Virus record (IMG/VR): IMGVR_UViG_3300020045_013318
Location: 1 to 64,000 of that record
DNA: 64,000 nt
Reading direction: 5' to 3' (one strand)
Origin: a virus
Shown: positions 14,541 to 55,848 of the stretch, in pieces
Numbering within the stretch: the first letter of the stretch is position 1
How the letters are laid out: each line of letters begins with the position of its first letter
The notes under the pieces: model-generated
What the model was told of the DNA's origin: nothing
Databases searched by the model: none
Seen by the model: only the letters and a program-made list of their open reading frames with translations
Position numbers and translations under genes: made by a program

Positions 14541-14957
14541 ATGATAAATGTAAAAGCCCAAGAAATTATAGATCGTATTGAAAAAGCCGCGCAAAATTAT
14601 GGCAAAGTATTTGACTTTGACAAAATTGTAACTGCCTTAAAAAAACATTATACAGCTCTAAACATTCCAATACCTAAAATTGTTGCCGTAGACAATATGG
14701 AAGAAGCTTATAAAAACGCTCGGGATGCCGCTCGGGATGCCGCTCGGGATGCCGCTTGGGGTGCCGCTGACATTCTTGCACTCAACCTCGATGAATACAA
14801 AGCAAAATACCCAAATGGAAACTTTATAAACTTGGTTCCACTCTATGAAGCAGGTCTCTACCCAGTCGGTGTCGTCGATGGGAAATTCATTGTGTACGTA
14901 CCACCATCGAAAACAGAGTTTCCAAGTGATTTAGTAGAGGAGATAGATAGTAAGTAA
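14541..14957 (+). CDS. RDAA/WGAA repeat protein spanning left junction (probable chimera)
   Basis: Composition shifts across repeat; N-half fits DUF6745-type protein, C-half a different family. Confidence 0.65.
   Translation: MINVKAQEIIDRIEKAAQNYGKVFDFDKIVTALKKHYTALNIPIPKIVAVDNMEEAYKNARDAARDAARDAAWGAADILALNLDEYKAKYPNGNFINLVPLYEAGLYPVGVVDGKFIVYVPPSKTEFPSDLVEEIDSK
14718..14768 (+). repeat. 12-bp tandem array: GCT + (CGGGATGCCGCT)x3 + TGGGGTGCCGCT
   Basis: Read directly; same units as 55027..55254. Confidence 0.97.
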
Positions 14958-14961
14958 AAGT

Positions 14962-15420
14962 ATGACCACCCCCGCAAAAAAGGAACACCAAAAACATTGT
15001 AGAGAACGATATGGATATGCGTGTTCTTGTTTCCCTAGTTCAGATATAAATCTTTCATCAGACGTATTTGAACCTACCCCCGCAAAAGAGTGGCGTGAAC
15101 AATTCAGAAATCAATTTTGGCTACATCGTGTACCTAAAAACACAAAGCAGATGCACGATATTGAAGACTTCATTCAAAACCTCCTCACCACCCACTCCGC
15201 TCGGCTTGTAGATAGGTTGGAAAGTAAGAGAAAAGAGTTCGTACCTGCTGATAATGTATGGGTTGGTGATGATGACTATGAAGTTGGGGAGTGGAAATTA
15301 GTACCAAAAGAAGACGGAATGTGGTGTTTGAATTGTGAGCAATTCATCCCAGAAGAAGGTTGTGCGTGTGGAGTTATATCAATCGACCAAGCCTTAGACA
15401 TTATCAAGGATAATAAGTGA
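14962..15420 (+). CDS. Hypothetical early protein with Cys clusters
   Basis: 152-aa ORF in tightly packed operon. Confidence 0.65.
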   Translation: MTTPAKKEHQKHCRERYGYACSCFPSSDINLSSDVFEPTPAKEWREQFRNQFWLHRVPKNTKQMHDIEDFIQNLLTTHSARLVDRLESKRKEFVPADNVWVGDDDYEVGEWKLVPKEDGMWCLNCEQFIPEEGCACGVISIDQALDIIKDNK

Positions 15421-15421
15421 T

Positions 15422-15706
15422 ATGAAAACAATGGAAGAACTACGAATCCTGGAAGTCCAAAAGGAAAAGGACCGCGAAGCAGAGGAAAAGCGACTTGCTG
15501 AGGAAGTGTTATGCGCTGAAATTACCTTCCCAACAAAGATGCAACTCGACCTCGGCATCTCTAACCTCACATTCAAATACGATGATGTAAAAGATTGGAT
15601 AGAAGAAGAACTTGCAAACGCCGATAAGAAGTCCGTCACATTCAGCATCAAGTTCTTTATAAAAACAAACAAGTGGATAGAGAATTTGCCCGAAGCGGAT
15701 ATTTAG
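15422..15706 (+). CDS. Hypothetical protein
   Basis: 94-aa ORF. Confidence 0.65.
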   Translation: MKTMEELRILEVQKEKDREAEEKRLAEEVLCAEITFPTKMQLDLGISNLTFKYDDVKDWIEEELANADKKSVTFSIKFFIKTNKWIENLPEADI

Positions 15707-15715
15707 TAACAGTAG

Positions 15716-15798
15716 GATGGGTGGTTTACACAGGGTCGTGCCTTTGCTGGATTCTCCAGCCCCTAAAGATGGGCGTGACCCGTTGCGAATCACTCATC
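15716..15798 (+). ncRNA. Structured intergenic RNA element
   Basis: Nested helices GATGGGTGGTT/AATCACTCATC, GGGTCGTGCCT/GGGCGTGACCC, GCTGGA/TCCAGC with G-U pairs on + strand. Confidence 0.45.
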
Positions 15799-15834
15799 AC
15801 AGACATAGGGATTATCAAGAGTAATTGAGAGAGT

Positions 15835-16023
15835 ATGAGCAATTATCAACTTATCGCACGAGACAGGATTACAGATGAGGAATTTACTGTTGTTGCTATG
15901 GATGACTATTTTGGAAGACATCACTACGGTTATGCCATAGGTGAACAAATTCTTACCGAGGAACAATTCCACCTAGCTTATGAGCCTGTAGTCAGTTCCC
16001 CCCACAATCGAACAGAGGATTAA
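15835..16023 (+). CDS. Hypothetical protein (DDYFGRHHYGY)
   Basis: 62-aa ORF. Confidence 0.65.
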   Translation: MSNYQLIARDRITDEEFTVVAMDDYFGRHHYGYAIGEQILTEEQFHLAYEPVVSSPHNRTED

Positions 16024-16034
16024 AAGATAAGCAA

Positions 16035-16427
16035 ATGAGCATGAACAAAACCTTTATTTTAGAACAACAGAAGATTGCGAGGGAGAGAGCCAAAAATGCT
16101 TTGCTCCCAAAAGGAATAGACTCAAACGGCTTTGGAATGACATACGAAGACCTTGACACCCTCATTGCCCAAACCATCCTCGCGACTGAGGAAGAGACTC
16201 TTGCACGAGTGAGGGGGGAAGCAATTACTATTACAGCAAGACTTGATAGAGAGTTTTTCAAAGGCAGATTTTCATCTAGTGGACTTGAGTCTATAGAAGC
16301 AATCATCAAAGACGAACTCACACCCACTCCCGTAGAGAGCGAAGAAAGCGGTTTTGCTAAATTCCTCAAAGAAAACGGTCACGGCAATTCAGCAACTTCC
16401 ACACCCTTACCAACCAATAAGACATAA
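16035..16427 (+). CDS. Hypothetical protein
   Basis: 130-aa ORF; shares ETLARVR block with next gene. Confidence 0.65.
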   Translation: MSMNKTFILEQQKIARERAKNALLPKGIDSNGFGMTYEDLDTLIAQTILATEEETLARVRGEAITITARLDREFFKGRFSSSGLESIEAIIKDELTPTPVESEESGFAKFLKENGHGNSATSTPLPTNKT

Positions 16428-16432
16428 GAGAC

Positions 16433-16732
16433 ATGACACAAACAAATGAGGAGAGAGTAGAGGCTCTTTACACAAACATAGTAATGATACTTATGAGTGG
16501 CTACCCAAGCGACCAAGAAGAAGAAAAAATAAAACTGCGCTTGACACAAGCCCTCACCCAAAACACTGCAGAGACTCTTGCACGAGTGAGGGAGGTTGCA
16601 GAAAGCTGTTCAGTTAGTGAAGTTACTCTACAGGGAGACACATATGAGACGGGTATGATTGCAAAAGAGCTGTTTCTTAAAAAACTCACCACCCTCACAC
16701 CATTAACATTAACAGACGATAAGACAGAATGA
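16433..16732 (+). CDS. Hypothetical protein
   Basis: 99-aa ORF. Confidence 0.65.
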   Translation: MTQTNEERVEALYTNIVMILMSGYPSDQEEEKIKLRLTQALTQNTAETLARVREVAESCSVSEVTLQGDTYETGMIAKELFLKKLTTLTPLTLTDDKTE

Positions 16733-16733
16733 C

Positions 16734-17087
16734 ATGAAAGAAATAATCATTGCATTTGACGTTGATGGAACAATTCTCAATAACGAAGGGATACCTCCTG
16801 AAACTCCAACTCATTTACGACCACGTTGTGGGGTAAATCTTGAGGTCATCCAACTGATTCAAATTCTTTCAAAGAAAATGAAAAACACCAAGATTATCGT
16901 GTGGTCAGGTGGGGGAAAAGAGTATGCAACGCAGATTGTTCGAGAATATGGATTAGATAAGTATGTGCACAGATGCCACAGTAAGCAAGACTACGACGAA
17001 ACAATAGATGGAGAAGTTGATATTTGTTTTGATGATGTTCACGCTTGCGAATTGGCGAAGATGAATCTAATTGTAAAAATGAAATGA
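16734..17087 (+). CDS. HAD-superfamily phosphatase-like protein
   Basis: FDVDGT, WSGGG, FDD motifs. Confidence 0.85.
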   Translation: MKEIIIAFDVDGTILNNEGIPPETPTHLRPRCGVNLEVIQLIQILSKKMKNTKIIVWSGGGKEYATQIVREYGLDKYVHRCHSKQDYDETIDGEVDICFDDVHACELAKMNLIVKMK

Positions 17088-17422
17088 AAAAGTACGACAG
17101 AGAAAAAAGGAGGTGGGTGACTGCAGAAGAATACGAACGTACCCATCAATCAAAAGATAAGGCGTTTTGTCATGGGAAAACCCCACACGATTTTGTTTTA
17201 GTACTACCAGAATATGTTTCATACGACAGTAGATATCAACACAATCCAGAAGCGTATTACGACCTACTTGATCAATACGAGAAATTGGAGGAAGAACTTG
17301 AGGAAAAAATAAAAGCAATGGGAGTAGTTGAGCGATTTTCTCGTGGAGGTAAGTGGAGAAGAAGTTATCGTTTTTATCTATGTTCAGCATGCAAGAAGAA
17401 GCATTACGAATACAAAGAGTAA
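17084..17422 (+). CDS. Hypothetical protein
   Basis: ATGA-coupled; C-terminal CSAC. Confidence 0.65.
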   Translation: MKKYDREKRRWVTAEEYERTHQSKDKAFCHGKTPHDFVLVLPEYVSYDSRYQHNPEAYYDLLDQYEKLEEELEEKIKAMGVVERFSRGGKWRRSYRFYLCSACKKKHYEYKE

Positions 17423-17426
17423 CACT

Positions 17427-18661: not shown

Positions 18662-18706
18662 ATATTTCTTGTTATTTACAATAGACCTTCTGTCACTGCC
18701 CGCCTG

Positions 18707-19126: not shown

Positions 19127-19231
19127 GTCTATATCATACCTCGTCCTGCCTTTAGACGACAACCCAAACTCTATCTCCCACCTCAATAAGTATACCCAAT
19201 TCAATGAGTTCCTATAACGATAGGGGGTGCA

Positions 19232-34552: not shown

Positions 34553-35611
34553 TTAAGTTGCTCCTGCGAGTGTTCCATTAAGTCGGCAGTTTGTTGCTAC
34601 GAAGTTTCCTGCGTAGATGAGGTAGCCAACCTTTGTGAGTTGATCGACTGGGCTCATCATCTTGCGGAATTGGAATCCACGAGTTGACTTTACGTTTCCA
34701 GGAACTCCACTAGGTGTTGCATCAGAAGTCTGCTTAAAGTTTGCAGTCATGATGTTTTCATCTTCGTAGTTGAATCCTACGAATCCGAATGCCTTAGTGT
34801 TAACGAGGAAGTACTTTCCAGATGGAACCTGCTCATCTTTCGCAATTGGAGTACCACGGAAGGTAAGGTAAACGAAACCTTGCTGTCCACCAAGTCCTGG
34901 TGTAGCAGGAACGCCTCCCCATGCATTCATACGTGGGTATCCAGCTGTTGAGAAGTTTGCTCGTACGGTTGGAGTCAAAAGAGCCTCATAAGAAGACCAA
35001 AGTGACTTTGTAGTAAGGGCAAGATCTGGTGAATCTACTCCGATTGTTACTGTGTCATCAGCTGTTGCAAGCTTTGCAAGAGTGAGGGCACCAGTAGAAG
35101 CGAGGTAGTAGCCACTCCATGCTGAGTAGGTTGAACGTGAGAGTGAACCGTAAGTCGCAAAGAGAGTTGAGTCAGATGCACCGTTTGCAAGTGAGTCCCA
35201 GTCATTTCCTGTACCGTTTCCAGTATAGAGGTTCTGAGCCATGAGAGTCATAAGAGACTGACCTTGTGAGTCAAACTCGGTGTTGAGGAGATCAACAATC
35301 TTCTCATCTCCCATATTTGCTGTCGTTTCTGCAATTGCTACAACAACAGGCTTGTTTGCTGCCTTGAGGTTGAATGATGCCTTAACACGTACGTTCTGGC
35401 GATCTGTATCAAGACGATCAGCAATACCCATGTTTCCTCCATTCGTTGTATCTGCATACTTGATTGGAAAATCGTAGGTTACTCCTGATGTCCATTCCTT
35501 TGGTTTCGAAAGGAAGGTCATAAGACCTGGAGTTCCAGTCGTTACCTGATCGAACACTTTCTTGATAATGTATTCACGAGTTGTGGTCGTGACTGCTGCG
35601 TTAAAAATCAT
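34553..35611 (-). CDS. Major capsid protein
   Basis: 352 aa after scaffold; LY.GNG, L.FRGTPI..D...P.G..F.VN. Confidence 0.85.
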   Translation of the reverse strand: MIFNAAVTTTTREYIIKKVFDQVTTGTPGLMTFLSKPKEWTSGVTYDFPIKYADTTNGGNMGIADRLDTDRQNVRVKASFNLKAANKPVVVAIAETTANMGDEKIVDLLNTEFDSQGQSLMTLMAQNLYTGNGTGNDWDSLANGASDSTLFATYGSLSRSTYSAWSGYYLASTGALTLAKLATADDTVTIGVDSPDLALTTKSLWSSYEALLTPTVRANFSTAGYPRMNAWGGVPATPGLGGQQGFVYLTFRGTPIAKDEQVPSGKYFLVNTKAFGFVGFNYEDENIMTANFKQTSDATPSGVPGNVKSTRGFQFRKMMSPVDQLTKVGYLIYAGNFVATNCRLNGTLAGAT

Positions 35612-36465: not shown

Positions 36466-38328
36466 TTAAATAACCGGTGGTTCTCCTTCAGGAGGAGCTG
36501 ATGCCATCACTTGTTCTGGAGTCAAAGTTCCAGGCGTAAATGGAATAGGCATCTCCTCTTGTCCAATTCCTACTGCCTCCATCGGATTCTGTTGATAGAG
36601 AACAGCATTCTTTGCCAACTCTTTTGAGTTGTCATACTGAGCAATCTCAAGGTAGTCGACTGGACTGATGTATCCTTTTTCTACATCATTCTGAGCTTGT
36701 TCAAACTTGAATTCATCATCTTTTGGAAGAGTCTTGCCTGAAATAATGGTGATCTCAGATCCTGTTTCAAAGTCGTCTTGAATAAGTTCAATTACTTCGC
36801 GAGCCCCCTCCTTGCCCATCCATTTTGCATAGTGGTATTCGGTGTATCGAGTCTTTGCAAGTTGCATGCCCCAAGAAAACATTTCATGATACGCAAAGTC
36901 GACAACTTGGACCAACTCGTTGAGGCGAAGGTATGATTGTTGAATCAAAGCAAGTCGTCCAGCCTTAGTCTCTTGGCCTTGTCTCTCTCCTCGGAAAGCT
37001 GACGTTGCTGCCATGATGTTGTCAATTTCAGATCGTGAATCAATCATGTCGTCAAACACCATTTGAGGAAGAGTTCCTCCTGTCTCTCGCTGAACACCAT
37101 TGACTACTCCCTTCCCCCAGATGATTCCTTTGGTTTCCCATCGGATTCTTTGCGCATCTGACTTCGACATTACGTCGGAATCAACTTTGACAATTCCGTT
37201 TGCGAGTTCACAATTCTCATCAATATCCATCTTTCGTTTGTCGATTCCTCTTTGAAGCTCAGCTGATAGAGTAATCATGTCAGTTCTTCCAATTGGAGAA
37301 TTTTCATTATTGAAAATTGTCGCAAAGATGTACGGCTTTCTTGGAAAGTCGAAGTAGTTGAAGTAGAATGGCTTGTATTGAATCTTTTCTTCCTGATATT
37401 CTTGTTCAGGAGTTTCTTCCTCCATTCCAATCATAGACTTCATTGCGTCAATTCCTTTTTCCATCATTCCTTTTTCAGGAGGAGGAAGTTGAGATTGTTT
37501 CCTCTCTTCTTGCTGAGTCTTGATGTCTTGAATCTTATTTCGTCTTCCTTCTCCCTCAAGGGTGGCAAGCTCTTGTTCTTCTTCTTCGGTAATTAAAATA
37601 CCATCCCAATCCCAATATGGATTCTTGATACATCCAAGAATCAGTTCATCCATTTTGAAAATTACATAGTCTTGGATCCACGCCTCTTTGTATTTGCAGT
37701 CAGGGTTCTTGATATAGAGGTCAGCCTCTTTATGAATTCCAAACTTCTTCATCAACTCTTCTTTCTTATCAGGGAATCTTTCACAAATCGCACAAAGATT
37801 GTCATTTATTTCCTCAATGACGAATTCAGAATCAACTTCCTTTCGAGCATACTTCCCAACTCGAATCTTTCGTGGATCGACTGCTCGGAAGTCAAAGTCG
37901 TTGATTTGAGGATTCCAAAAAGGCTTAATGACAAGGAGTCGAGCAAAGTAAAGATTGCGAAGTCCCATACGCATAACCTCTTTTGAGTTGAGATCAAGAT
38001 ATTTCTTTTGAAAGAATCTCTCGAGTTTACGAGCAAAATCTTGAGCGACTTCTCCATCACGAGCAGGAAGGACGTTGACGCCAGGAGGATTTGCAATTAA
38101 AGAGTTGATCACCGCCTCCATATTGACAAAGATTCTATTTGCTTGAACAATCCACTTTCGTCGAACATGATTAATGTTTTCAAGCCACGCTGACGTATTT
38201 GAATAGATTGCAACATTCTCTTTGTATACTCGTTCAAGAATATCCCAAACCTCTGACGAGGAACTCCACCGGTTGTTGACCAGATCTTTCTTTTGTGAGT
38301 CGTCAAATGCTTTGATGTCTATTTTCAT
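36466..38328 (-). CDS. Portal protein
   Basis: 620 aa after TerL; LQRGIDKR...N and G..QGQETKAG P22-like portal patterns. Confidence 0.85.
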   Translation of the reverse strand: MKIDIKAFDDSQKKDLVNNRWSSSSEVWDILERVYKENVAIYSNTSAWLENINHVRRKWIVQANRIFVNMEAVINSLIANPPGVNVLPARDGEVAQDFARKLERFFQKKYLDLNSKEVMRMGLRNLYFARLLVIKPFWNPQINDFDFRAVDPRKIRVGKYARKEVDSEFVIEEINDNLCAICERFPDKKEELMKKFGIHKEADLYIKNPDCKYKEAWIQDYVIFKMDELILGCIKNPYWDWDGILITEEEEQELATLEGEGRRNKIQDIKTQQEERKQSQLPPPEKGMMEKGIDAMKSMIGMEEETPEQEYQEEKIQYKPFYFNYFDFPRKPYIFATIFNNENSPIGRTDMITLSAELQRGIDKRKMDIDENCELANGIVKVDSDVMSKSDAQRIRWETKGIIWGKGVVNGVQRETGGTLPQMVFDDMIDSRSEIDNIMAATSAFRGERQGQETKAGRLALIQQSYLRLNELVQVVDFAYHEMFSWGMQLAKTRYTEYHYAKWMGKEGAREVIELIQDDFETGSEITIISGKTLPKDDEFKFEQAQNDVEKGYISPVDYLEIAQYDNSKELAKNAVLYQQNPMEAVGIGQEEMPIPFTPGTLTPEQVMASAPPEGEPPVI

Positions 38329-38655: not shown

Positions 38656-40218
38656 TTATTGATTATTATCGCTGAATGCCCTGCTTACATCATAAACATT
38701 GTCTGCTCCAAGAACTGACGGAATATCTGCCTTTGTAACCTCTCCAAAGAATGCTCCTGATCCTTGTGAAAGCATTGCTAGATATGCATATAAATCAGCA
38801 AAAACATAGTGATCTTCTCCAGTTGTTGAATCCCAAACGTATCTCTCAATCCCTTTATTGCTGACGACTTTTGTACGCCTCAGCGTCTCATAATGCTTGA
38901 CATACAGCATGAATTCTTTATCTGCCTTGAGTCCAATTGAGTGTTTACCCTCAATCATTCCTGTCAAGTGTTTGTCAAGGATTCTATCACGATGTGAGTA
39001 GACAATTCCTTTTCGATCTCCTTCTCCCCACCATACGATTGTTTGAGGATTGTTGTTATTCTCTTGAAAGAACGACATTTTCATGAATGGGTACTTGTCA
39101 ATCAGGTATTTCGACAAAGTGTTATCAGGCATTGCGTCAATTACTCCTGCGGTGGGCTTCCAAAATGCGATTATATCATCAATTTCAGAATCTTTAGTGA
39201 TTCTTCCTATCTTAATTAATCCTAATTCACTGCGGACAACGTAGTGTTTAATGTTTCCTACGTCAATTCCAAGGAAAATATTGCCTGTTGTATTCAAATC
39301 ACGAGGAGTCCACAAGTCAAGAATGGTCGTTTTTGTGACCGAGAGGTCACCAGGACTGTAGCTTTTCCCAAGGACGAAGTTGTTGAAGTAGGCTGGATCT
39401 CCTTCCGAATCTTCAATGATTTCTTCTGGAGTGATCCAAGGACACATTAAGTGTGAAATGTGATATCCACTTGTTTTAGATCCTGGATTCTGAGCGACCC
39501 ACTTCCCTTGACGACGAACATCATCAGAGATTGGTTCTGTACATGCCCTACAAATATAGATCTTTCTCTCCATATCGATTGATTCTGGCCATTGGAGAAA
39601 GTGTTGATCTTTGCAATGAGGGCAGGTAATGGTCCACTCCTTTTGATCTGATTTGTGGAATTGAATATCGAGCTCATCTCGTTCTGTTCCTGGGTTGCTG
39701 AACATCCAACGCCCTTTGTATTGCGATGCTTTTGTACGAGATTTGTAGGTTTCAATTGCACTCTGATCTGAGCGAGAAATCTCATCGTGAATCAAGAGGT
39801 CGGCAGTTGTTGAAATGGCAGCAGTCTTTGAATTGGTACCCTTGAAGAAGATAAATCGATCATTAAGCTGCTTTCTTTCTATATTGTCGGTCTCCATTCC
39901 TTCAAACTCATGATAGTTTGCTTGGATGATTTTATTCATTTTTGACGAGACAAACTCTCGAACATCATCATCTGACGACATTGTGTAAATTGCGTTGAAT
40001 CTCAGGTATTTAATCGCAAACAGCGATTTAATTGAGAAGGTGACTGATTTCCCAACCTGAGCACAAGCTGTAAGAACTATCGTTGGATTCCAATCACATA
40101 GAATGTCAAGAAGAAAAGGACGATCAATAAAGCTGAAAGGTTCACCCTTTTCATCAACAATTCCTTCTTGGACGATCCATTGAAGGATTGAGTAGTATTG
40201 TTTAGTTTCCTTCTTCAT
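38656..40218 (-). CDS. terL: Terminase large subunit (lambda gpA-like)
   Basis: AQVGKS, HDE, SNP, SDQKEW...CPHC zinc motif, GIDVG nuclease, DHY. Confidence 0.92.
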   Translation of the reverse strand: MKKETKQYYSILQWIVQEGIVDEKGEPFSFIDRPFLLDILCDWNPTIVLTACAQVGKSVTFSIKSLFAIKYLRFNAIYTMSSDDDVREFVSSKMNKIIQANYHEFEGMETDNIERKQLNDRFIFFKGTNSKTAAISTTADLLIHDEISRSDQSAIETYKSRTKASQYKGRWMFSNPGTERDELDIQFHKSDQKEWTITCPHCKDQHFLQWPESIDMERKIYICRACTEPISDDVRRQGKWVAQNPGSKTSGYHISHLMCPWITPEEIIEDSEGDPAYFNNFVLGKSYSPGDLSVTKTTILDLWTPRDLNTTGNIFLGIDVGNIKHYVVRSELGLIKIGRITKDSEIDDIIAFWKPTAGVIDAMPDNTLSKYLIDKYPFMKMSFFQENNNNPQTIVWWGEGDRKGIVYSHRDRILDKHLTGMIEGKHSIGLKADKEFMLYVKHYETLRRTKVVSNKGIERYVWDSTTGEDHYVFADLYAYLAMLSQGSGAFFGEVTKADIPSVLGADNVYDVSRAFSDNNQ

Positions 40219-41761
40219 TCGTTAGAGTAACCTCCATTCCTACCAACGCAGACGTGATGGCAACAGCACTCTCTAAAGCAAGTCGAGTTACTTTGAATGG
40301 ATCAATGATGCCTGCCTCAAACATATTGACATGCTTTTTGTTCTTGAAGTCAATTCCTATGCCATTTTCGGTATTAACACTTACATTGGTGGGCAATCTA
40401 AATAGCTTCTGGATCCAAGTTTTTTGATACATTCCTGAGTTGTCTACCATTTGAGTGAAGGGGGTAGATAAAGCGTTCTTAAATATTGAATCTTCATGTC
40501 TAAATGCGGCCGTTAGGAGAGCTAGTCCTCCTCCAGGAAGTATTCCTTCTTGAAGAGCTGCTTGAGTAGCATTAATTGCATTCTCAAACTTATACTTCTT
40601 GGCATTGAATTCGGTGTCTGTGTACGCCCCAACTCGAATCACTCCAATTCCTCCCGTCAGCGCAGCCAAGCGATCATTAAGTATTTCTTTCTGATATTCT
40701 GAGGTAGTTGAATCAATCTCTCCCTGAATCACTTTGATTCGATCCCAAAGTTCTGGATTTTCAGTCGCTCCAATGATGGTTGTTCGATCTTTAGTTACGA
40801 TGACTTTTTCCGCTCGTCCACACACCTCTTTCGTTTGTTTATCGAGTCGCATTCCTCTCTCCTCCGAAATGATGGTTGCTCCTGTCAATGCTGCCATATC
40901 AAGAAGGAAGTCTCGTGCCGGAGAGGCAGTATATGGATTACGAACACATGCGATGTTGGCAATTTTGTTGACGGCATTCTGAGCGAGAGTCCCAAGAGCA
41001 ACTCCATCAACGTCATCGGCTATGATTAGAATGTCGTTCCCCGTTCCAATTGAGTTTAATAGAGAAATAATCTGCTCATTAGTACTTATCTTTCGATCAA
41101 CTAGAATGATGTAGGGATTTTCAAGAATTGTCTGCATCTGCTGATGATCATTGACGAAATATGGAGAAATAAGACCTCTTTCAAATCGAGCTCCTTTCAC
41201 CACCTCTTTTGAATAGCCTAGCTGTGCCCCCTTTTCAACTGTCACTACCCCCTTAACACCAACCTCTTTGATTACTTCCGCAATTAGCTTTGCAACTTCA
41301 GGATCTAGTGATGAAATGTTGGCAATTTTTTCAATATCATCTTGAGATACTTCTCGTTTAATATATTCAAGTTGTGCAAGTACTTCCTCCAATCCTTGAG
41401 TCAGTCTCTCTTTTATTTTTCGACTCTTTGAGCTGTCTTTCCCAAGCTCTTTGAAGGCTTCAGTGAGAAGTGCTTGAGTAAGAACTGTCGTTGTGGCCGT
41501 TCCGTCTCCACCTTCGACCGATGTTCGAACACCCGCTTTGCGGAGCATTTGAAGTCCAATATTTTCGTATTTATCTTTAAAGTCAAGCTGTCTAAGGATC
41601 GTTACTCCATCATCACATTCAATAGGATCCAAGCCAGGAACCTCAATGAATGCTGTCATCCCGACTGCTCCAAGTGTTGGTCGAACAGCATCACACGCCT
41701 TATCAATTCCAGCCTTGACTCTCATTCTTGCTTCGTGTCCCTTTAGTATTTGTTTGCTCAT
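40202..41761 (-). CDS. groEL: Phage-encoded chaperonin GroEL
   Basis: TLG, DGVTI, GDGTATT, RG.ISPYF, ERLA-like/GGIGVI.VGA.T, GI.PGGG, GIIDP.KV. Confidence 0.95.
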   Translation of the reverse strand: MSKQILKGHEARMRVKAGIDKACDAVRPTLGAVGMTAFIEVPGLDPIECDDGVTILRQLDFKDKYENIGLQMLRKAGVRTSVEGGDGTATTTVLTQALLTEAFKELGKDSSKSRKIKERLTQGLEEVLAQLEYIKREVSQDDIEKIANISSLDPEVAKLIAEVIKEVGVKGVVTVEKGAQLGYSKEVVKGARFERGLISPYFVNDHQQMQTILENPYIILVDRKISTNEQIISLLNSIGTGNDILIIADDVDGVALGTLAQNAVNKIANIACVRNPYTASPARDFLLDMAALTGATIISEERGMRLDKQTKEVCGRAEKVIVTKDRTTIIGATENPELWDRIKVIQGEIDSTTSEYQKEILNDRLAALTGGIGVIRVGAYTDTEFNAKKYKFENAINATQAALQEGILPGGGLALLTAAFRHEDSIFKNALSTPFTQMVDNSGMYQKTWIQKLFRLPTNVSVNTENGIGIDFKNKKHVNMFEAGIIDPFKVTRLALESAVAITSALVGMEVTLTNEEGN

Positions 41762-46046: not shown

Positions 46047-46652
46047 ATGGCGAAAAAAACAGCAACAATGAAGCTTGGGAAAGCAGACTACGCAAAAGTT
46101 CCCGACAGAGTAAAAGAGTTCAGAACTGCACACCCAGACGGAAAGATCGAACAAGACAATATTAATCTTCCAGATGGACAAATTGAGTTTAGAGCTTGGA
46201 TTTGGAAAGATAAAACCCAACTAATCGAACTGATAAAGTCTGGCGTAACGAACACAGCTGTTCTGCGATCCAGTTCCGACTCAAATGGAACGGCCAAGAA
46301 GGCTACAAAAGACGTCAAAGATTTTGAAAAACTTGAAACTATTGCGGTAGGACGAGCTTTGGCAATGCTTGGATACCTTGCGAGTGGAGAGATAGCCTCA
46401 AGTGAAGAAATGGAGGAGTTTCTTGCAGATAAAGAACAAAAAGCTCAGGAGGAAATCAATGAAATAACTGAAAAGATTGGTGAATGTAAATCTGATTATG
46501 CACTTGCAAAGTACTGGCTTTCACTTCCTGGAATCTTCAAAACTAATCCTGCAGTATTCCTAGCCAAAGAGGAGAAGAAGAAGAGTTTTAAGAAACCAAA
46601 GGAAGAAGAGGTCTCTCCTGAGGAGGGGATAATCGAAGAGGAAACACAATGA
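46047..46652 (+). CDS. Probable single-strand annealing protein (recombinase)
   Basis: YAKVPDRV...EKLETIAVGRALA; coupled to exonuclease, near SSB. Confidence 0.6.
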   Translation: MAKKTATMKLGKADYAKVPDRVKEFRTAHPDGKIEQDNINLPDGQIEFRAWIWKDKTQLIELIKSGVTNTAVLRSSSDSNGTAKKATKDVKDFEKLETIAVGRALAMLGYLASGEIASSEEMEEFLADKEQKAQEEINEITEKIGECKSDYALAKYWLSLPGIFKTNPAVFLAKEEKKKSFKKPKEEEVSPEEGIIEEETQ

Positions 46653-47380
46653 AAATAATAACATACGACAGTCGAGAGGAGTGGCTCAAGGGTCGCCTTG
46701 GCAAGATCACAGGATCTAAACTCAATGAGGTGTTCTCTGTCAAGGAGGTAACAAAGGATGAGATTTCGAAGATTCTAGATCGAGAAAAAATTGAGTACAA
46801 AAAGAGCGAAAAGAAGGAAGTTTTGGAGCAATTGGTTCCAGAAAAATACAAATCAGAACTTCTGGGAAAGCGAGAGTATAAACTTGGATTCTATGAAGTA
46901 TTGGCAGAACGATTGTCTGTTCCCGAAGAGGGAAATGAGACACCAATAGATCGCGGAACTCGACTTGAAGGACCAGCTCTTGACGTCTTTGCAGAAATGA
47001 CTAAAAAGAAAATCAAAAATGACTTGATTCTTTGGGTCTCTGATGAGGATGAGGGAATGGCCTACTCACCTGATGGATGTATTTCACCCAAGGAAGTCGT
47101 TGAGGTAAAATGTTTGTCTTCTGCCAGACACTTAATGGCATACTTCGAACAAACAATTCCTTCTGAGTATGTCAAGCAGTGCTTGCAGGGATTTATAGTC
47201 AATGAAAAGCTTCAGATTTGTCATATTGCCTTCTTTGATCCAAGAATTCCATCAAAACCTCTTCACTGGATAACTCTCAATCGGAAAGATCTTGTTTCGG
47301 ACATTGAGATGTATCGACAACACGAATTATCAACAATTAAAGAATTAGAAGAAAAAGTTAATCAACTAGCATCATACTAA
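46649..47380 (+). CDS. YqaJ/lambda-type exonuclease
   Basis: EWL..R.GKITGS, RGTRLE, SPDG, EVKC, Y..Q. Confidence 0.9.
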   Translation: MKIITYDSREEWLKGRLGKITGSKLNEVFSVKEVTKDEISKILDREKIEYKKSEKKEVLEQLVPEKYKSELLGKREYKLGFYEVLAERLSVPEEGNETPIDRGTRLEGPALDVFAEMTKKKIKNDLILWVSDEDEGMAYSPDGCISPKEVVEVKCLSSARHLMAYFEQTIPSEYVKQCLQGFIVNEKLQICHIAFFDPRIPSKPLHWITLNRKDLVSDIEMYRQHELSTIKELEEKVNQLASY

Positions 47381-47562: not shown

Positions 47563-48015
47563 ATGTCAATCAATCTAAATGTGGCAATTGTGTCAGGACG
47601 CCTTGTTCGAGATCCAGAATTAAAAGCACTCCCAAGTGGGGTTTCAATTTGTAATTTCAGTCTAGCTACCAATCACATCTATACAAAAGATAGTGAAAAA
47701 AAGGAGTCGGTTGAATTTCATAATGTCGTCCTGTTTGGGAAACAAGCAGACAACACGGCTCGGTTCCTCAAAAAAGGATCAGAAGCTCTCGTTGAGGGTC
47801 GCCTTCAAACTCGATCTTGGGAAAAAGATGGCGTAAAGCACTACCGAACTGAAATTGTGGGAGACTCAATACAATTTGGATCCAAACAATCATCTCAAAA
47901 CAACGATGTTGAAGAAGAGAATAATGAGGAAGAAACTCCAAAATTAAAAACAAAGAAGATTGAAGCGCCTGAATATCCAGAAGGTGAGATAAATCCCGAC
48001 GATATTCCTTATTAA
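47563..48015 (+). CDS. ssb: Single-stranded DNA-binding protein
   Basis: GRL.RDPE...FSLATN...VEGRLQTRSW; DDIPY tail. Confidence 0.95.
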   Translation: MSINLNVAIVSGRLVRDPELKALPSGVSICNFSLATNHIYTKDSEKKESVEFHNVVLFGKQADNTARFLKKGSEALVEGRLQTRSWEKDGVKHYRTEIVGDSIQFGSKQSSQNNDVEEENNEEETPKLKTKKIEAPEYPEGEINPDDIPY

Positions 48016-49651: not shown

Positions 49652-49856
49652 ATTCGGGGGAAGAAATTCCCCCCTCTTTTCTACTTTCTAAATCGGAATC
49701 ACCAGCCTTATGGGTGCCTGACAGGGAGGAGCTCTGTTTGGTTGTAGACAGCCAATACAAGGTTTGGAAAGTAGAAAAGAGGAGTGTGCATAACTTTTGT
49801 AGACAAAATAATCGCCTATCTGTATACTTTATACATTACAAGATAAGTATTAAGAG

Positions 49857-50916: not shown

Positions 50917-50933
50917 AAGTAGAATGAAAGTAT

Positions 50934-52172: not shown

Positions 52173-52977
52173 AGTATCATTCATTGCTCCAACGAGTCTG
52201 ATCCCACAATACGGGAACCAAGGAGATTTTCATCTAGCACTCGCTCATCTTCTTGGGCCAGTCAATGAGACTCCTAACGAGTACGAACAAGCGTTGATCA
52301 ACTCAGGACTTCCAATCATTCTTGACAATGGACTATTTGAAAATAAAGAATCGGTCCCAGTACGAGAATTAATGGAGAAGGCTGTCCACCTCAACGCAAC
52401 ACATGTCTTTGCTCCTGATGTTCTTTTTGATCGAGAGGGTACAGAGGCAAATATTGAGGAGGCTTATGCAGTTCTAGAGGAGATTAAGGCAGACTTTCCA
52501 GAATGCCAAACAAAACTTGCAGCAGTTGTTCAGGCAAACAGCGCTGATGATTTTCTAGCAAGCTACCTTCTCATGGCAGACGATCCAAGAATCGATCTGA
52601 TAGGGTTATCCATTCTGTCTGTTCCACATTCATTTAAGGAGATCTCAGGAACTGACGACATTACAATCAATCGAATTATCTGCCTCAAGAGACTCAACAA
52701 ACTTCCAATTCATAAAGACTCACACCTTCTTGGACTTGGAGACTCATACGAAGATGTTGCGTTTGCAAACGAGCATTGTCCTTGGGTTGTTTCTCACGAC
52801 AGCTCATCTGCTGTCTGGAATGGAGTTCAGGGGAAGAATATTCACTCAACATCTCTCAAGGTTGCTGGAGGTAAAACTAAAGTTCATGTCGACTTTGCCT
52901 TTGGGGATGAGTTGACTGAGGTACAAGTGGCCGACATTACACACAACATTGAAGTCGTTAAATCAATCATTAAATAA
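52165..52977 (+). CDS. TGT-fold DpdA-like deazaguanine transglycosylase
   Basis: ILDNG.FE, APDV, VVQ, HLLG, S.DSSSA; within que/fol cluster; subfamily not assignable by eye. Confidence 0.75.
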   Translation: MIKVSFIAPTSLIPQYGNQGDFHLALAHLLGPVNETPNEYEQALINSGLPIILDNGLFENKESVPVRELMEKAVHLNATHVFAPDVLFDREGTEANIEEAYAVLEEIKADFPECQTKLAAVVQANSADDFLASYLLMADDPRIDLIGLSILSVPHSFKEISGTDDITINRIICLKRLNKLPIHKDSHLLGLGDSYEDVAFANEHCPWVVSHDSSSAVWNGVQGKNIHSTSLKVAGGKTKVHVDFAFGDELTEVQVADITHNIEVVKSIIK

Positions 52978-52978
52978 T

Positions 52979-53365
52979 ATGCAAATCAATCCACGAACAA
53001 TCCTCGATCGAGGAATCATAAAGTATTGTGAAACAACCAAGGTTCAGCAGGTAGGAGTAGATCTCTCAATTGGACAAGACTTTGTCGTCAAAGTGGGCGA
53101 GTCGAAGAATATCAACTTCCGAGAAAGCATCAAGCTTCCTGACAACATGTATGCACTGTTCTATGTGCGATCATCATGGAGTCGCAAGGGAGTATTTGTA
53201 AGTTCTGGCGTCTACGATAGTGGATATGAGGGAACGATTGGGTGCACCATCTACAATATGTCTGGAGAAGATGTTCAATTTACAGAAGGAGATCGTATTG
53301 GGCAAATGATTTGTTATTTGGCTGATGCGGCAAGTAGTTACAATGGTCAATTTCAGGGGAAATAA
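52979..53365 (+). CDS. dCTP deaminase / trimeric dUTPase family protein
   Basis: GVDL, RSSWSRKG, DSGYEG, RIGQ, YNGQFQ. Confidence 0.85.
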   Translation: MQINPRTILDRGIIKYCETTKVQQVGVDLSIGQDFVVKVGESKNINFRESIKLPDNMYALFYVRSSWSRKGVFVSSGVYDSGYEGTIGCTIYNMSGEDVQFTEGDRIGQMICYLADAASSYNGQFQGK

Positions 53366-53509
53366 TATGAGAGTAAAAATTAAAATATCGTCAGGGAAAA
53401 TCCTCGAGATTGAGGGAAAGATTCTTGAGAAGAGAGAGTTGTTTGGACGCAAGGAGGCTCTGATTGATGGGAAGCTGTCGAAGCCTATCTGGGTGACTAT
53501 TCCAAAAAA

Positions 53510-53836
53510 ATGAAAGGAATAGATTTCTCCGCATTGAAGGAGAGATTGAAAAATCCAACAGACGATCTTCCAAACTTCCCATACGAATTTTGGGTAAATA
53601 AGACAGCAAAGCTATTGAAAAAACCCTACATTCAAGTTCATGGATTAGTCGCAAAAGAAGGATTGACACTCGAGGGGATCACAAGGAGATACAACAACGC
53701 AACAAAACACAATGGAGACATGCCGTCGGAAGTCTATTGGTGGTGGAGGAGAAAGGTTGAATATAAAAATGAAAAAGAAAAAAGTATACCCAACAAACAA
53801 AAGTGTGCACCTTCTCGGGAAGGTAGCAAATCATGA
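53510..53836 (+). CDS. Hypothetical protein
   Basis: 108-aa ORF in operon. Confidence 0.6.
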   Translation: MKGIDFSALKERLKNPTDDLPNFPYEFWVNKTAKLLKKPYIQVHGLVAKEGLTLEGITRRYNNATKHNGDMPSEVYWWWRRKVEYKNEKEKSIPNKQKCAPSREGSKS

Positions 53837-54302
53837 AGGCAAACTCAAGGTTAAATTAAATGGACCTCAGTACTTGGATCACTTCCTCAAGAATCACACT
53901 AAGGTTGGAGATGATGTTTTGATGGTTGTGACAGCAAAAAGGCCAAAAAGGTCAGCTTCTCAAAACAACTTCTTTTTTGTCTATTTAGATTTAATCTCTC
54001 TCTCATGTGGACACTCAATTGAGGAGCTCCATAAGTGGGTCAATGGGTACATCTTGGGACAAGGAATCACTGAAGTGTTTGGCCAGAAGGTTCGTATGGT
54101 TGGAAGTACTTCTGATCTCAATATCAGTGAGTTTTGTGAGATGATGAATAGAATTTTTGAAGAGACTGATATTCCGATTCCAGATCCTGAGCCCTTCAAT
54201 CTTCCTCTGACGTACAATGAGTTTGGAAAATTAAAACTAGATCAGCAAATTCAGTATAAAAAAATGAAAAATAGACTTCTCGAGAGGAATTTGTCTAATT
54301 AA
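53769..54302 (+). CDS. NinB-like recombination protein
   Basis: RSASQN...EELH...STSDL...EF. Confidence 0.75.
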   Translation: MKKKKVYPTNKSVHLLGKVANHEGKLKVKLNGPQYLDHFLKNHTKVGDDVLMVVTAKRPKRSASQNNFFFVYLDLISLSCGHSIEELHKWVNGYILGQGITEVFGQKVRMVGSTSDLNISEFCEMMNRIFEETDIPIPDPEPFNLPLTYNEFGKLKLDQQIQYKKMKNRLLERNLSN

Positions 54303-54396
54303 GTGCATATTTTGAAGTAAATGACTGTTCATAACTATAGTTGATAGGGATAAGGAATGGGAGTATGGTGTATGTATACAAGTATAAGCAAACAAT

Positions 54397-54582
54397 ATGA
54401 GAAAACAACAAAACCAAGGCTACGAAATATACAACACCTTCAAACGAAGCCCTATCGAGAACGATTGGTACATCATCCCCCTTGTTATTCTAGGCACCTT
54501 CCTCGCCGTAACCCTATACGCAGGAGTAGATTTGGTCTTTAATGTCATGGTCGAGTTTATTGGAGGGTTAATGGTGAACTAA
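54397..54582 (+). CDS. Small membrane protein
   Basis: First ORF after promoter at 54326; TM helix. Confidence 0.6.
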   Translation: MRKQQNQGYEIYNTFKRSPIENDWYIIPLVILGTFLAVTLYAGVDLVFNVMVEFIGGLMVN

Positions 54583-54583
54583 C

Positions 54584-54826
54584 ATGACATTCATACAAGA
54601 GAAGGTGGAGGCTCTATTTAAAGACGACTCAATTCGCAGTCGCAAATTTGAAAACAAAATAAAGAAAGCCCTCACTGAAGCTCTCGAAGAAGGCAAGCGG
54701 ATGGCCTGTGCAGAGATAGAGAAGAGGGTGGAACAGACGCATGGCTTTACAAGCCCAAATTCAGTTGAAAGAATCATTAAGGAACGTGACATCCTCACCA
54801 TTACCAAGGAGATAGCTAACAAATAA
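54584..54826 (+). CDS. Hypothetical protein
   Basis: 80-aa ORF. Confidence 0.6.
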   Translation: MTFIQEKVEALFKDDSIRSRKFENKIKKALTEALEEGKRMACAEIEKRVEQTHGFTSPNSVERIIKERDILTITKEIANK

Positions 54827-54828
54827 AT

Positions 54829-55848
54829 ATGAAATACAAACAAGAACTACCTGTAAAAGTTGAAGCACAATTAGACGCATACATAGAACGTATCAAAGCG
54901 ATTAAATGGTTCCAACCAAGTAGTGAATTAAAACGTGCAGAGATTGACACCCAAGTAAACCTTGCCCTTAAGGCATTTGGTGTAGAAGCATCTATTGAGT
55001 ATCGAACATTAAAAACACCACAAGATTGGGATGCCGCTTGGGATGCCGCTCGGGATGCCGCTCTGGATGCCGCTTGGGATGCCGCTTGGGATGCAGCTTG
55101 GGATGCCGCTTGGGATGCCGCTCGGGATGCCGCTCGGGATGCCGCTCTGGGTGCCGCTTGGGATGCCGCTTGGGATGCCGCTTGGGATGCCGCTCGGGAT
55201 GCCGCTTGGGGTGCCGCTTGGGGTGCCGCTTGGGATGCCGCTTGGGGTGCCGCTGCAATAAATACTAAATTACAGGATAAAACAATGCTTAAATTTATTG
55301 AAATTGAAACCCCCTTATTGGAAGCTTTAGAATTTGGTTTGGGATATTTCTTTCCCATGAAAGATATGCTAATTATTGTCCCTTGTCCTTCTTTTATTTT
55401 TAACAATAAAAAACAATTACATTCAGAAGAGACAATGGCTATATCATGGAAAGATGGAACGGGGTATTATTTCCTTGATGGAGTAAAATTAAAAGAATCT
55501 GTTTGGAAAAACATTCTCTCTCGTTCTATGTCTTTTGAAGAAGTTGCCATGCTTAAAAATATAGAAGATCGTATGGTCGCTCTTAAATACAACCCTAATG
55601 CTCTTCTTAAAAATGCGATTTTACTTGACAAAACAAAGCGTAACGAACTTTGGCTTATAGAAGGATTTGGTACAAATTCACAAAACAAAATTGATGCCTT
55701 TTTTCTGAAATATACTTGTCCTTCTACAGGTAGAGTTTATACAAAAGGCGTTCCTGTTGAAGTTGGCAAACAAAAAGATGCTGACGAAGCTCAAGCATGG
55801 AGCCATTGGCTTTCAAAAGAGGCTTATCAATTATTAAATGAGTCTTAA
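54829..55848 (+). CDS. WDAA-repeat protein with C-terminal DUF6745-like domain, spanning right junction (probable chimera)
   Basis: LHSE...AISWKDG...YFLDGV...NIEDR...CPSTGR.Y...VP. Confidence 0.75.
   Translation: MKYKQELPVKVEAQLDAYIERIKAIKWFQPSSELKRAEIDTQVNLALKAFGVEASIEYRTLKTPQDWDAAWDAARDAALDAAWDAAWDAAWDAAWDAARDAARDAALGAAWDAAWDAAWDAARDAAWGAAWGAAWDAAWGAAAINTKLQDKTMLKFIEIETPLLEALEFGLGYFFPMKDMLIIVPCPSFIFNNKKQLHSEETMAISWKDGTGYYFLDGVKLKESVWKNILSRSMSFEEVAMLKNIEDRMVALKYNPNALLKNAILLDKTKRNELWLIEGFGTNSQNKIDAFFLKYTCPSTGRVYTKGVPVEVGKQKDADEAQAWSHWLSKEAYQLLNES
55027..55254 (+). repeat. 19 x 12-bp tandem array (TGG/CGG/CTG)(GAT/GGT)GCCGCT
   Basis: Counted directly; one unit has GCA instead of GCC. Confidence 0.98.

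What the first reader, a model, noticed from the sequence alone, without database searches (positions are those of the whole stretch)
14718..55254. A whole ~40-kb phage genome nested in a second phage, joined through identical coding 12-bp tandem arrays
Seen: arrays of the same unit at 14718-14768 and 55027-55254, in direct orientation, both ending TGGGGTGCCGCTG. Between them is a self-contained genome whose + arm (45.5-55.0 kb) continues naturally into 14.77-18.3 kb if circularised. The flanks also read as one operon when joined and duplicate functions (second TerS, GroEL, holin, lysin, tail). No integrase is visible. Inference: a single crossover between two circular phage DNAs at a shared repeat, i.e. 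an integrase-free cointegrate. A de Bruijn figure-eight misassembly gives the same picture and is at least as likely.
Basis: partly seen in the sequence, partly recalled or inferred. Interest (0 to 1): 0.88.

Follow-up and report, generated by a model that had tools for sequence, protein, structure and literature searches.

The report
Two phage genomes joined at repeat
A complete 40-kb phage genome sits inside part of a second, unrelated-looking phage exactly at a short coding repeat that both carry, and this is most likely a metagenome assembly error rather than a natural fused genome.

Summary
Two arrays of one 12-bp unit (14717-14769, 4 units; 55027-55255, 19 units) bracket a self-contained 40,486-bp phage genome ("Y", GC 0.42). 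Y lies inside 36.6 kb of a second, incomplete phage ("X", GC 0.36).

The window is part of a 77,135-bp linear metagenome virus record. Composition switches exactly at the arrays. TCGA occurs 199 times in Y and 4 times in X, with the first and last Y sites 19 and 22 bp from the arrays.

Both junction genes are hybrids. Of 122 database homologues, 112 pair the N-part of 54829-55848 with the C-part of 14541-14957. One pairs the other two halves, and none shows either of the window's combinations. The closest relative (TerL 92%) is colinear with circularised Y and carries no X gene apart from weak GroEL and tail-fibre-like matches. Relatives' complete genomes are about 41 kb. Six of 25 related contigs end in or at this array gene.

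No reads could be obtained, so an artefact and a real crossover cannot be separated directly. My odds are about 0.68 for an assembly chimera and about 0.3 for real recombinant junctions. A single genome or an integrase-mediated insertion is rejected. The scan had already noted related arrays on other DNA.

The parts
14717..14769 (+). Left 12-bp array, 4 units coding RDAA RDAA RDAA WGAA, GC 0.755. Junction A runs from X on the left to Y on the right.
55027..55255 (+). Right 12-bp array, 19 units coding W/R/L-D/G-A-A, GC 0.70. Junction B runs from Y on the left to X on the right.
14541..14957 (+). Hybrid ORF P0001 (138 aa): N-part of the X type (GC 0.30), then the array, then C-part of the Y type (GC 0.40).
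   Evidence: None of 122 homologues has this combination.
54829..55848 (+). Hybrid ORF P0002 (339 aa): N-part of the Y type, then the array, then C-part of the X type, which is distantly DUF6745-like.
14770..55026 (.). Phage Y, a complete genome. With one array it is 40,486 bp. GC is 0.418 and TCGA and ACGT are frequent.
1..14716 (.). Phage X, left arm (early and replication genes). GC is 0.355, with 1 TCGA and 0 ACGT.
55256..64000 (.). Phage X, right arm. It runs on to contig base 77135 and holds the rest of the array gene, GroEL, tail genes and a capsid-like gene. GC is 0.361.
38656..40218 (-). Y large terminase, the only one in the 77-kb contig.
40202..41761 (-). Y GroEL-type chaperonin.
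36466..38328 (-). Y portal protein.
34553..35611 (-). Y major head protein.
46649..47380 (+). Y YqaJ-like recombination exonuclease.
47563..48015 (+). Y single-strand DNA-binding protein.
53712..54302 (+). Y NinB/Orf-like recombination mediator. It is one of the last Y genes before junction B, and its homologue in G006 is followed by homologues of Y genes at 16.0-18.7 kb.
56248..57969 (+). X GroEL-type chaperonin. It is 25-27% identical to the GroEL regions of three Y-family relatives.
7904..9073 (+). X DNA helicase.

Best explanation
The 77-kb record is most likely a chimeric metagenome contig.

Two distantly related phages of the same broad GroEL-encoding group were in the sample. Each carries, at the end of its early operon, a homologous gene with an in-frame, fast-changing 12-bp (xDAA/xGAA) array built from the same DNA unit.

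In the assembly graph, or in an overlap-merging step, the array acted as a shared node. The path entered from X's left arm, went once round the whole circular genome of Y, and left into X's right arm (a figure-eight or simple-loop traversal). That would create two hybrid ORFs that do not exist in nature.

Shown: two genomes, a join exactly at the arrays, hybrid junction genes, and native joins in relatives. Inferred: that the join was made by the assembler and not in a cell.
For: (1) Source. The window lies in a 77,135-bp linear IMG/VR-type virus record with no end overlap. CheckV rates it 100% complete. Five relatives also rated 100% complete are 41.0-42.6 kb. None of the contigs behind the 57 terminase-relative loci exceeds 57.9 kb.

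(2) Two genomes.
- GC is 0.355 and 0.361 outside the arrays and 0.418 inside.
- Tetranucleotide correlation is 0.91-0.97 among X pieces, 0.92 between the two Y halves, and 0.59-0.81 across.
- TCGA occurs 199 times in Y (observed/expected 1.34) and 4 times in X (0.03). ACGT occurs 72 times against 1.
- The first Y TCGA is at 14788 and the last at 55002, within 25 bp of the arrays.
- Outside the arrays, X and Y share no exact word of 18 bases or more.

(3) Hybrid junction genes. Of 119 homologues, 109 have the N-part of P0002 with the C-part of P0001. One (P0003) has the N-part of P0001 with the C-part of P0002. Seven have the P0002 C-part with other N-parts, and two have the P0001 C-part only. 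None has either of the window's combinations. A search with the P0002 N-part among proteins of 186-594 aa gave 8 proteins. Five were read and end in the P0001-type C-part, and the other three were already classed that way.

(4) Synteny. G006 (34.5 kb, terminase 92% identical) runs from the homologue of 53712-54302 directly into homologues of 16035-16427, 17328-17957 and 18200-18661. Its only matches to X genes are a 27% GroEL match and one 34% match to an X tail-region protein.

(5) The array disturbs assemblies. Six of 25 distinct related contigs end in or at the array gene. One 49.5-kb contig has the gene's two halves at its two ends. P0016 and P0018 are identical apart from 11 units, and their contigs (40,515 and 40,383 bp) differ by exactly those 132 bp.

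(6) No way to propagate the fusion is visible. No integrase was found. An X+Y molecule of 77 kb or more is about twice the roughly 41-kb genomes of the family (inference about packaging).

(7) Literature. Chimeric contigs between related viruses, arising at conserved sequence, are documented for virome assemblers (PMC3901335, passages; PMC6350398, passages).
Against: (1) No read evidence was available, so this explanation rests on priors and indirect signs.

(2) At junction A the shared stretch is only 53 bp, so any word of 55 bases or more across 14716-14770 is specific to the hybrid. The longest exact match between the two array regions is 35 bp. A de Bruijn assembler with a final k of 55 or more could not build junction A from the two native genomes alone. 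It would need a smaller k, an overlap-merging step, or longer native arrays that were collapsed. The assembler used is unknown. This step is my inference.

(3) The left array (4 units) matches the length of the only X-type relative's array (P0003, about 3.5 units). The right array (19 units) is within the range of native Y-type arrays (1-21, median 8). So both arrays may be intact native arrays, exchanged within their last 24 identical bases. That is short for an assembler but within reach of phage annealing recombinases.

(4) Y encodes a YqaJ-type exonuclease, SSB and a NinB/Orf-like mediator, which are recombination functions.

(5) Both hybrid ORFs are intact and in frame. Either explanation predicts this.
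Confidence: 0.68

Rival explanations
1. The recombinant molecule is real. X and Y infected the same cell and a single homologous crossover took place within the shared array, possibly catalysed by Y's own exonuclease, SSB and NinB-type functions. The product was an intracellular cointegrate or a hybrid concatemer with the order X-left, Y, X-right. It would be a replication-stage intermediate, not a packaged genome.
For: The arrays are direct, in frame and built from the same DNA unit, and the junctions are exactly reciprocal. Junction A is short enough that a final k of 55 or more would need real hybrid reads (inference). The array lengths fit intact native arrays. Y has a recombination module. 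Within this phage group, G005 combines X-like replication genes (29-46% identity) with Y-like structural genes, so modules do move between the lineages.
Against: None of 122 natural homologues shows either hybrid gene. The two parts show no blending of composition and switch within 25 bp of the arrays. Restriction-site avoidance and GC differ strongly between X and Y, so a shared host is not established. An X+Y molecule of 77 kb or more is about twice the family's genome size, so it could not spread as a virion and should be rare next to its parents. No near-identical copy of either junction was found in the IMG/VR or JGI contig collections.
Confidence: 0.2
2. One or both hybrid junctions exist in the population as separate recombinant molecules or as low-frequency template-switch products. 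The nested order, with one whole Y inside X, was still produced by the assembler threading them together.
For: The evidence is the same as for the real-recombinant reading at junction A. In addition, arrays often break or collapse in assemblies.
Against: There are no data on junction frequencies. It needs both a real event and an assembly error.
Confidence: 0.09
3. The record is one natural genome: either a phage of 77 kb or more with duplicated modules, or Y inserted into X by a site-specific recombinase using the array as its attachment site.
For: The contig is continuous and all ORFs are intact.
Against: No tyrosine or serine recombinase was found at E <= 1, and the controls gave matches. 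No relative is colinear across a junction: the three relatives compared over their whole contig length (G003, G005, G006) carry no X structural genes apart from one 34% tail-fibre-like match. The composition is sharply two-part. Both junction genes are hybrids of two gene types that are otherwise kept apart.
Confidence: 0.03

Closest known systems
Chimeric contigs caused by sequence shared between genomes, in metagenome and virome assemblies (simple-loop or figure-eight traversal)
   Same: Two genomes of different composition are joined exactly at a sequence both carry. A complete circular genome is threaded once into a linear path. The source is a metagenome contig. Benchmarks report chimeras mostly between related viruses, arising at conserved sequence (PMC3901335, passages). 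Repeats and regions conserved between species are named as causes of misassembly (PMC6350398, passages).
   Different: The shared sequence is a short, imperfect coding minisatellite, not a conserved gene or an insertion sequence. At junction A only 53 bp are shared, which is short for assemblers with large k. Read support could not be checked.
Cointegrates formed by a single homologous crossover between two circular replicons (Campbell-type; recalled from general knowledge, no paper read)
   Same: One replicon is flanked by direct copies of the shared sequence, the hybrid junctions are reciprocal, and no site-specific recombinase is involved.
   Different: Both partners here are lytic-looking phage genomes and the product exceeds the family's genome size. 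No molecule spanning a junction has been shown. A search for phage cointegrates at tandem repeats listed no paper describing such a case (listing only).
Fast-changing coding 12-nt arrays (xAA[R/W] tetrapeptides) in phage early genes, noted earlier in this scan (e1-3475698, e1-3459048)
   Same: The period is 12 nt and the repeat is alanine-rich and predicted helical. Copy number differs between near-identical alleles (P0016 against P0018). Codons are uniform within an array but differ between phages.
   Different: Here the same DNA unit occurs in two different phages on one contig and coincides with a genome join.
Pfam DUF6745 (PF20530)
   Same: Seven of 8 homologues of the P0002 C-part match PF20530 at E <= 0.01, four of them above the curated cut-off. 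Seven of the 8 have the layout N-domain, 4-residue tandem repeat, C-domain.
   Different: The window's own protein does not match the model. No paper mentions the family. Its function is unknown.

Membership tests
Assembly chimera at a repeat shared between genomes | The two sides of the joint have the composition of different genomes | tested here: met
   GC is 0.355/0.361 against 0.418. TCGA is 4 against 199 and ACGT 1 against 72, switching within 25 bp of the arrays. Tetranucleotide correlation is 0.91-0.97 within a genome and 0.59-0.81 across.
Assembly chimera at a repeat shared between genomes | The joint lies inside sequence present in both genomes | tested here: met
   Both joints lie in arrays of the same 12-bp unit, and the arrays are the only DNA shared at 18 bases or more.
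Assembly chimera at a repeat shared between genomes | Each part exists on its own elsewhere, with the alternative (native) joins | tested here: met
   For Y: 112 native-type genes, G006 synteny and relatives of about 41 kb. For X: only one protein, P0003, shows the native join, and no X-like genome was found.
Assembly chimera at a repeat shared between genomes | Reads do not span the hybrid joints, and depth steps at the joints | not testable with these tools
   No sequencing run was listed, so read laying could not be used.
Homologous-recombination cointegrate | The inserted replicon is flanked by direct copies of the shared sequence, with reciprocal hybrid junctions | tested here: met
Homologous-recombination cointegrate | Physical molecules carry the hybrid junctions | not testable with these tools
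   No reads were available. No second contig with either hybrid gene was found in the searched collections.
Integrase-mediated insertion (nested prophage) | A tyrosine or serine recombinase is encoded in the element | tested here: not met
   PF00589 and PF00239 gave no match at E <= 1 in the whole contig. The controls matched in 14 and 13 of 14 genomes.
Single colinear phage genome | Relatives are colinear across the junctions | tested here: not met
   G006 passes from the 54-kb region directly to the 16-18-kb region. G003, G005 and G006 carry no X structural genes apart from one 34% tail-fibre-like match in G006. There is only one large terminase in 77 kb.
Pfam DUF6745 (array gene of X) | Match to PF20530 above the curated cut-off | tested here: inconclusive
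   P0002 and the contig give no match. Seven of 8 homologues match at E <= 0.01, four of them above the cut-off.
Coding minisatellite under concerted evolution | Copy number varies between otherwise identical alleles, and codons are uniform within an array but differ between arrays | tested here: met
   P0016 and P0018 differ by 11 units only. Native Y-type arrays hold 1-21 units. The alanine codon pairs are array-specific: GCC-GCT, GCA-GCA, GCC-GCA, GCG-GCA, GCT-GCT and others.

The most novel reading that the evidence does not exclude
The junctions are real. During a mixed infection, a single crossover inside a shared, fast-evolving 12-bp coding minisatellite fused two different phage genomes without any integrase. 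Y's own exonuclease, SSB and NinB-type recombination functions may have catalysed it. On this reading such arrays act as portable recombination linkers, which can swap protein halves and whole genome arms between distantly related phages.
Probability: 0.2. Interest if true: 0.6.

Novelty: not a real feature. Interest (0 to 1): 0.25.

Why it matters
If the join is an artefact, the record should be split at the arrays into one complete 40.5-kb genome and one 36.6-kb fragment. As it stands, CheckV rates it 100% complete. It would also feed catalogues three false items: a 77-kb phage with two chaperonins, two hybrid proteins that do not exist, and a false mix of restriction-site avoidance.

More generally, short coding minisatellites shared between co-occurring phages are a class of chimera-prone site that marker-based quality checks do not see. 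Six of 25 related contigs break at this gene.

If the join is real, it would be a direct snapshot of integrase-free fusion of two phage genomes at a minisatellite. It would then give a testable mechanism for module and domain exchange between phages.

Tried and rejected
Near-identical DNA in the phage collection. Megablast of 1-14717 and of 18300-43000 found no match.

Sequencing runs. None was listed for 9800-19700, so read laying was never called. The read test is therefore open, not negative.

The ENA and Logan contigs that carry P0003, P0011, P0016 and P0018 could not be read, so synteny around those genes is unknown.

Relatives of X. X's GroEL found one distant locus at 30% identity. X's helicase found none. 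The P0002 patterns found no X-type C-part in viral or JGI contigs. The native order of X therefore rests on one protein, P0003.

Array gene in Y's terminase relatives. It was absent from 9 of 9 records checked (G001-G009). The control record G010 matched. So the gene is accessory in this phage group, and G006 shows colinearity but not the native array gene itself.

Function of the array protein. Pfam and PHROGs gave nothing for P0001, P0002 or P0011. An AlphaFold model of native P0011 has mean pLDDT 69.5 and pTM 0.70, with the array region below 50. It had no PDB match at E <= 0.001; the best was an Rhs immunity protein at E 0.14. I draw no function from that.

Host. The genome-contig scan with Y's terminase found two MAG contigs: one of 40,646 bp binned with Candidatus Scalindua and one from an unnamed bacterium. 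These look like binned phage contigs and name no host.

Shared alanine codons. Both arrays use the pair GCC-GCT. I considered this as evidence that the arrays were mixed, and rejected it as uninformative, because about a third of the unrelated arrays use the same pair.

Literature. 'DUF6745' returned 0 papers. The phage cointegrate and tandem-repeat search listed nothing on this case, and I saw the listing only. Of the assembly papers I read matched passages only (PMC3901335; PMC6350398). For 10.64898/2026.10.15.759294 I saw only the listing and the start of the abstract. Supplementary files were not consulted.

Full report
**What is there**

The window is the first 64 kb of a single 77,135-bp contig that the tools class as a linear virus record. 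It has no terminal overlap.

Tandem Repeats Finder reports two arrays of one 12-bp unit, at 14717-14768 (4.3 copies) and 55026-55254 (19.1 copies). In frame they code 4 and 19 tetrapeptides of the form W/R/L-D/G-A-A. Both are on the + strand and both end in TGGGGTGCCGCTG. The flanks then diverge at 14770 and 55256. The array core occurs 22 times in the contig, always inside these two arrays.

**Two genomes, switching exactly at the arrays**

- GC is 0.355 (1-14717), 0.418 (between the arrays) and 0.361 (55255 to the end). The 2 kb on either side of each array give 0.32 against 0.42 at junction A and 0.40 against 0.32 at junction B.
- Tetranucleotide frequencies correlate at 0.91-0.97 among the three outer pieces and 0.92 between the two inner halves, but only 0.59-0.81 across.
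- Restriction-type palindromes give the sharpest marker. TCGA occurs 199 times inside (observed/expected 1.34) and 4 times outside (0.03). ACGT occurs 72 times inside and once outside.
- The first inner TCGA is at 14788 and the last at 55002, which is 19 and 22 bp from the arrays. The 14.7 kb to the left holds a single such site.
- Outside the arrays the two parts share no exact word of 18 bases or more.

**The inner part (Y)**

Y has a major head protein, portal, large terminase and GroEL. It also has a YqaJ-type exonuclease, SSB, a radical-SAM QueE-like protein, GTP cyclohydrolase I, a dUTPase and a NinB/Orf-like protein. Counted with one array it is 40,486 bp.

Its terminase finds 57 loci in IMG/VR. 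Twelve lie on contigs of 36.9-44.0 kb and none on a contig above 57.9 kb. Five of these records are 41.0-42.6 kb and rated 100% complete by CheckV. One of them has a 121-bp end overlap.

**The outer part (X)**

X has a helicase, an exonuclease, an HNH endonuclease and a methyltransferase fragment. It also has a second GroEL and a weak tail-spike hit, and a capsid-like protein just under the Pfam cut-off. It has no large terminase; only one is found in the whole contig at E <= 10. An ORF runs off the contig end. X is thus an incomplete genome of which 36,649 bp are present.

**The junction genes are hybrids**

P0001 (14541-14957) and P0002 (54829-55848) each cross an array.

- A relative in IMG/VR (L002) has a 170-aa protein with the N-part of P0002, 12 repeat units and the C-part of P0001.
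- A search with P0001 returned 111 proteins that match only its C-part. The twelve I read all have the P0002-type N-part.
- I classified all 119 retrieved homologues by local blastp against the four half-proteins:
  - 109 have the P0002 N-part with the P0001 C-part.
  - 1 (P0003, 70% identical to the P0002 C-part) has the P0001-type N-part with the P0002-type C-part.
  - 7 have the P0002-type C-part with other N-domains.
  - 2 have the P0001-type C-part only.
  - 0 have either combination seen in the window.
- A further search with the P0002 N-part among proteins of 186-594 aa gave 8 proteins. I read five, and all five end in the P0001-type C-part. The other three had already been classed that way. 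Three of the 8 were new, which brings the total to 122 homologues and 112 native Y-type genes.

So the native genes are the two alternative joins, 55026->14770 for Y and 14716->55256 for X.

By eye the two gene types look related to each other (N-domain, repeat, then a segment like "PLYEAGLYPVGV...VYVPP" or "PLLEALEFGLGYFF...IIVPCP"). I did not test that with a profile comparison. Seven of 8 homologues of the X-type C-part match Pfam DUF6745 at E <= 0.01, four of them above the cut-off. The window's own protein does not match.

**Synteny**

I compared three relatives over their whole contig length with all 106 ORFs that I called on the contig. G006 (34.5 kb, terminase 92% identical) is the closest.

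- Homologues of window genes 33.2-54.3 kb lie in order at G006 2-19523.
- They are followed directly by homologues of 16035-16427 (at 19966-20112), 17328-17957, 18200-18661 and the tail genes up to 28052.
- Its only matches to X genes are the GroEL paralogue (27%) and one 34% match of 290 residues to an X tail-region protein.

This is the colinearity expected if Y is a closed circle, and the opposite of "relatives colinear across the whole window". G006 lacks the array gene itself, as do all 9 terminase relatives searched, while the control record matched. The gene is therefore accessory in this group.

G005 (41.3 kb) combines Y-like structural genes with X-like replication genes at 29-46% identity. 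X and Y therefore belong to one broad, mosaic phage group.

**Real fusion or assembly error?**

Nothing in the sequence can prove either.

Indirect evidence for an artefact:
- The source is a metagenome contig about 1.9 times as long as its complete relatives.
- None of 122 natural homologues shows either hybrid gene.
- The composition shows no blending at all at the joints.
- X and Y differ strongly in GC and in restriction-site avoidance, so a common host is unproven. Avoidance also varies widely within the family, so this point is weak.
- The fused length is about twice the family's genome size.
- The array visibly disturbs assemblies. Six of 25 distinct related contigs end in or at this gene, and one 49.5-kb contig carries the two gene halves at its two ends.
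- Two database alleles are identical apart from 11 units, and their contigs differ by exactly those 132 bp. This is either real copy-number change or array collapse.
- A circular genome that shares a node with a linear path is the loop shape that path-extending assemblers traverse once. This is my knowledge of assemblers and was not tested.
- Benchmarks report virome chimeras mainly between related viruses at conserved sequence (PMC3901335, passages), and name repeats and regions conserved between species as causes of misassembly (PMC6350398, passages).

Evidence against an artefact:
- Junction A shares only 53 bp, so any word of 55 bases or more across 14716-14770 is specific to the hybrid. 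The longest exact match between the two array regions is 35 bp. A de Bruijn assembly with a final k of 55 or more could not create junction A from native genomes unless their arrays were longer and were collapsed. A small k or an overlap-merging step would be needed. The assembler is unknown.
- The left array (4 units) is close to the array of the one X-type relative (about 3.5 units in P0003). The right array (19 units) lies within the native Y-type range of 1-21, median 8. Both arrays could therefore be intact, with the exchange in their last 24 identical bases.
- Y encodes recombination functions.

**Weighing**

I put about 0.68 on an assembly chimera. I put about 0.2 on a real intracellular cointegrate or hybrid concatemer. 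I put about 0.09 on real hybrid junctions that the assembler threaded into a nested order. I put about 0.03 on a single genome or an integrase-mediated insertion. That last reading is contradicted by the absence of any tyrosine or serine recombinase and by the synteny and composition results.

**What is known, and novelty**

As an artefact this is an ordinary kind of error at an unusual kind of site. As a real event it would be a Campbell-type homologous cointegrate between two phages at a coding minisatellite. My one search for such a case listed no paper describing one (listing only).

The array itself is real. Earlier notes of this scan described the same kind of array on other DNA (e1-3475698, e1-3459048). 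My codon analysis agrees with rapid gain and loss of units with homogenisation: each phage's array uses its own pair of alanine codons.

**Verdict**

The two-genome join is confirmed. The natural-cointegrate reading is unproven and is the less likely one. Interest is low unless reads show the hybrid joints.

Noticed in passing
window 1-14716 and 55256-64000 (to contig base 77135): Phage X almost completely lacks TCGA (4 sites, observed/expected 0.03), ACGT (1 site, 0.01) and GGCC (3 sites, 0.08) over 36.6 kb. Phage Y has 199, 72 and 29. This looks like strong restriction-site avoidance in X. Y carries a putative 7-deazaguanine-type modification cluster instead. Avoidance profiles also vary widely among terminase relatives (for example L038: TCGA 5, ACGT 3, GATC 0, GGCC 0 in 21 kb).
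   Followed up: partly
window 48896-53365: Y encodes a radical-SAM QueE-like protein, GTP cyclohydrolase I, a DUF1599 'nucleotide modification associated' protein and a dUTPase/dCTP-deaminase-like protein. The proposed DpdA-like gene at 52165-52977 had no Pfam match.
   Followed up: partly
window 14541-14957, 54829-55848; loci L002, L062-L080, L089-L096: The array gene family is widespread: 111 hits with P0001. It has 1-21 repeat units. The alanine codon pair is uniform within each array but differs between phages. The gene occurs in phages otherwise unrelated to Y: 18 of the 19 array-gene loci share at most 3 other Y genes and the last has 4. An AlphaFold model of a native member is helical in the array, with the array region below pLDDT 50. 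No PDB match reached E <= 0.001.
   Followed up: partly
proteins P0016 and P0018 (ENA contigs of 40,515 and 40,383 bp): The two proteins are identical apart from 11 repeat units, and their contigs differ by exactly those 132 bp. This is either true copy-number variation between samples or collapse of the array by the assembler.
   Followed up: no
L094 / L002 (Ga0265296_1000175, 122,695 bp; IMG/VR calls a 35.5-kb part a provirus): An array-gene copy identical to P0045 lies on a contig that NCBI labels as a Patescibacteria group MAG. GGCC is over-represented there (observed/expected 3.2-3.9). Whether this is a true provirus of a Patescibacteria member was not examined.
   Followed up: no
window 40202-41761 (-) and 56248-57969 (+): Both phages encode a GroEL-type chaperonin. 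In Y it overlaps the start of the large terminase gene by 17 bp. X's GroEL is 25-27% identical to the GroEL regions of three Y-family relatives. Chaperonins in phages of about 40 kb seem typical of this whole group: 50 of the 57 terminase-relative loci gave a GroEL hit.
   Followed up: partly
G005 = IMGVR_UViG_3300020045_011942 (loci L040, L084-L086): This 41.3-kb relative, rated complete, combines Y-like structural genes (50-83% identity) with X-like replication genes (29-46%). It shows natural module mosaicism between the two lineages, without an array gene.
   Followed up: partly
L098 (JABGRF010000252.1, 40,646 bp): A whole Y-family-sized contig (terminase 74% identical) is binned in a Candidatus Scalindua MAG. 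It is probably a phage contig swept into the bin and is not host evidence.
   Followed up: no
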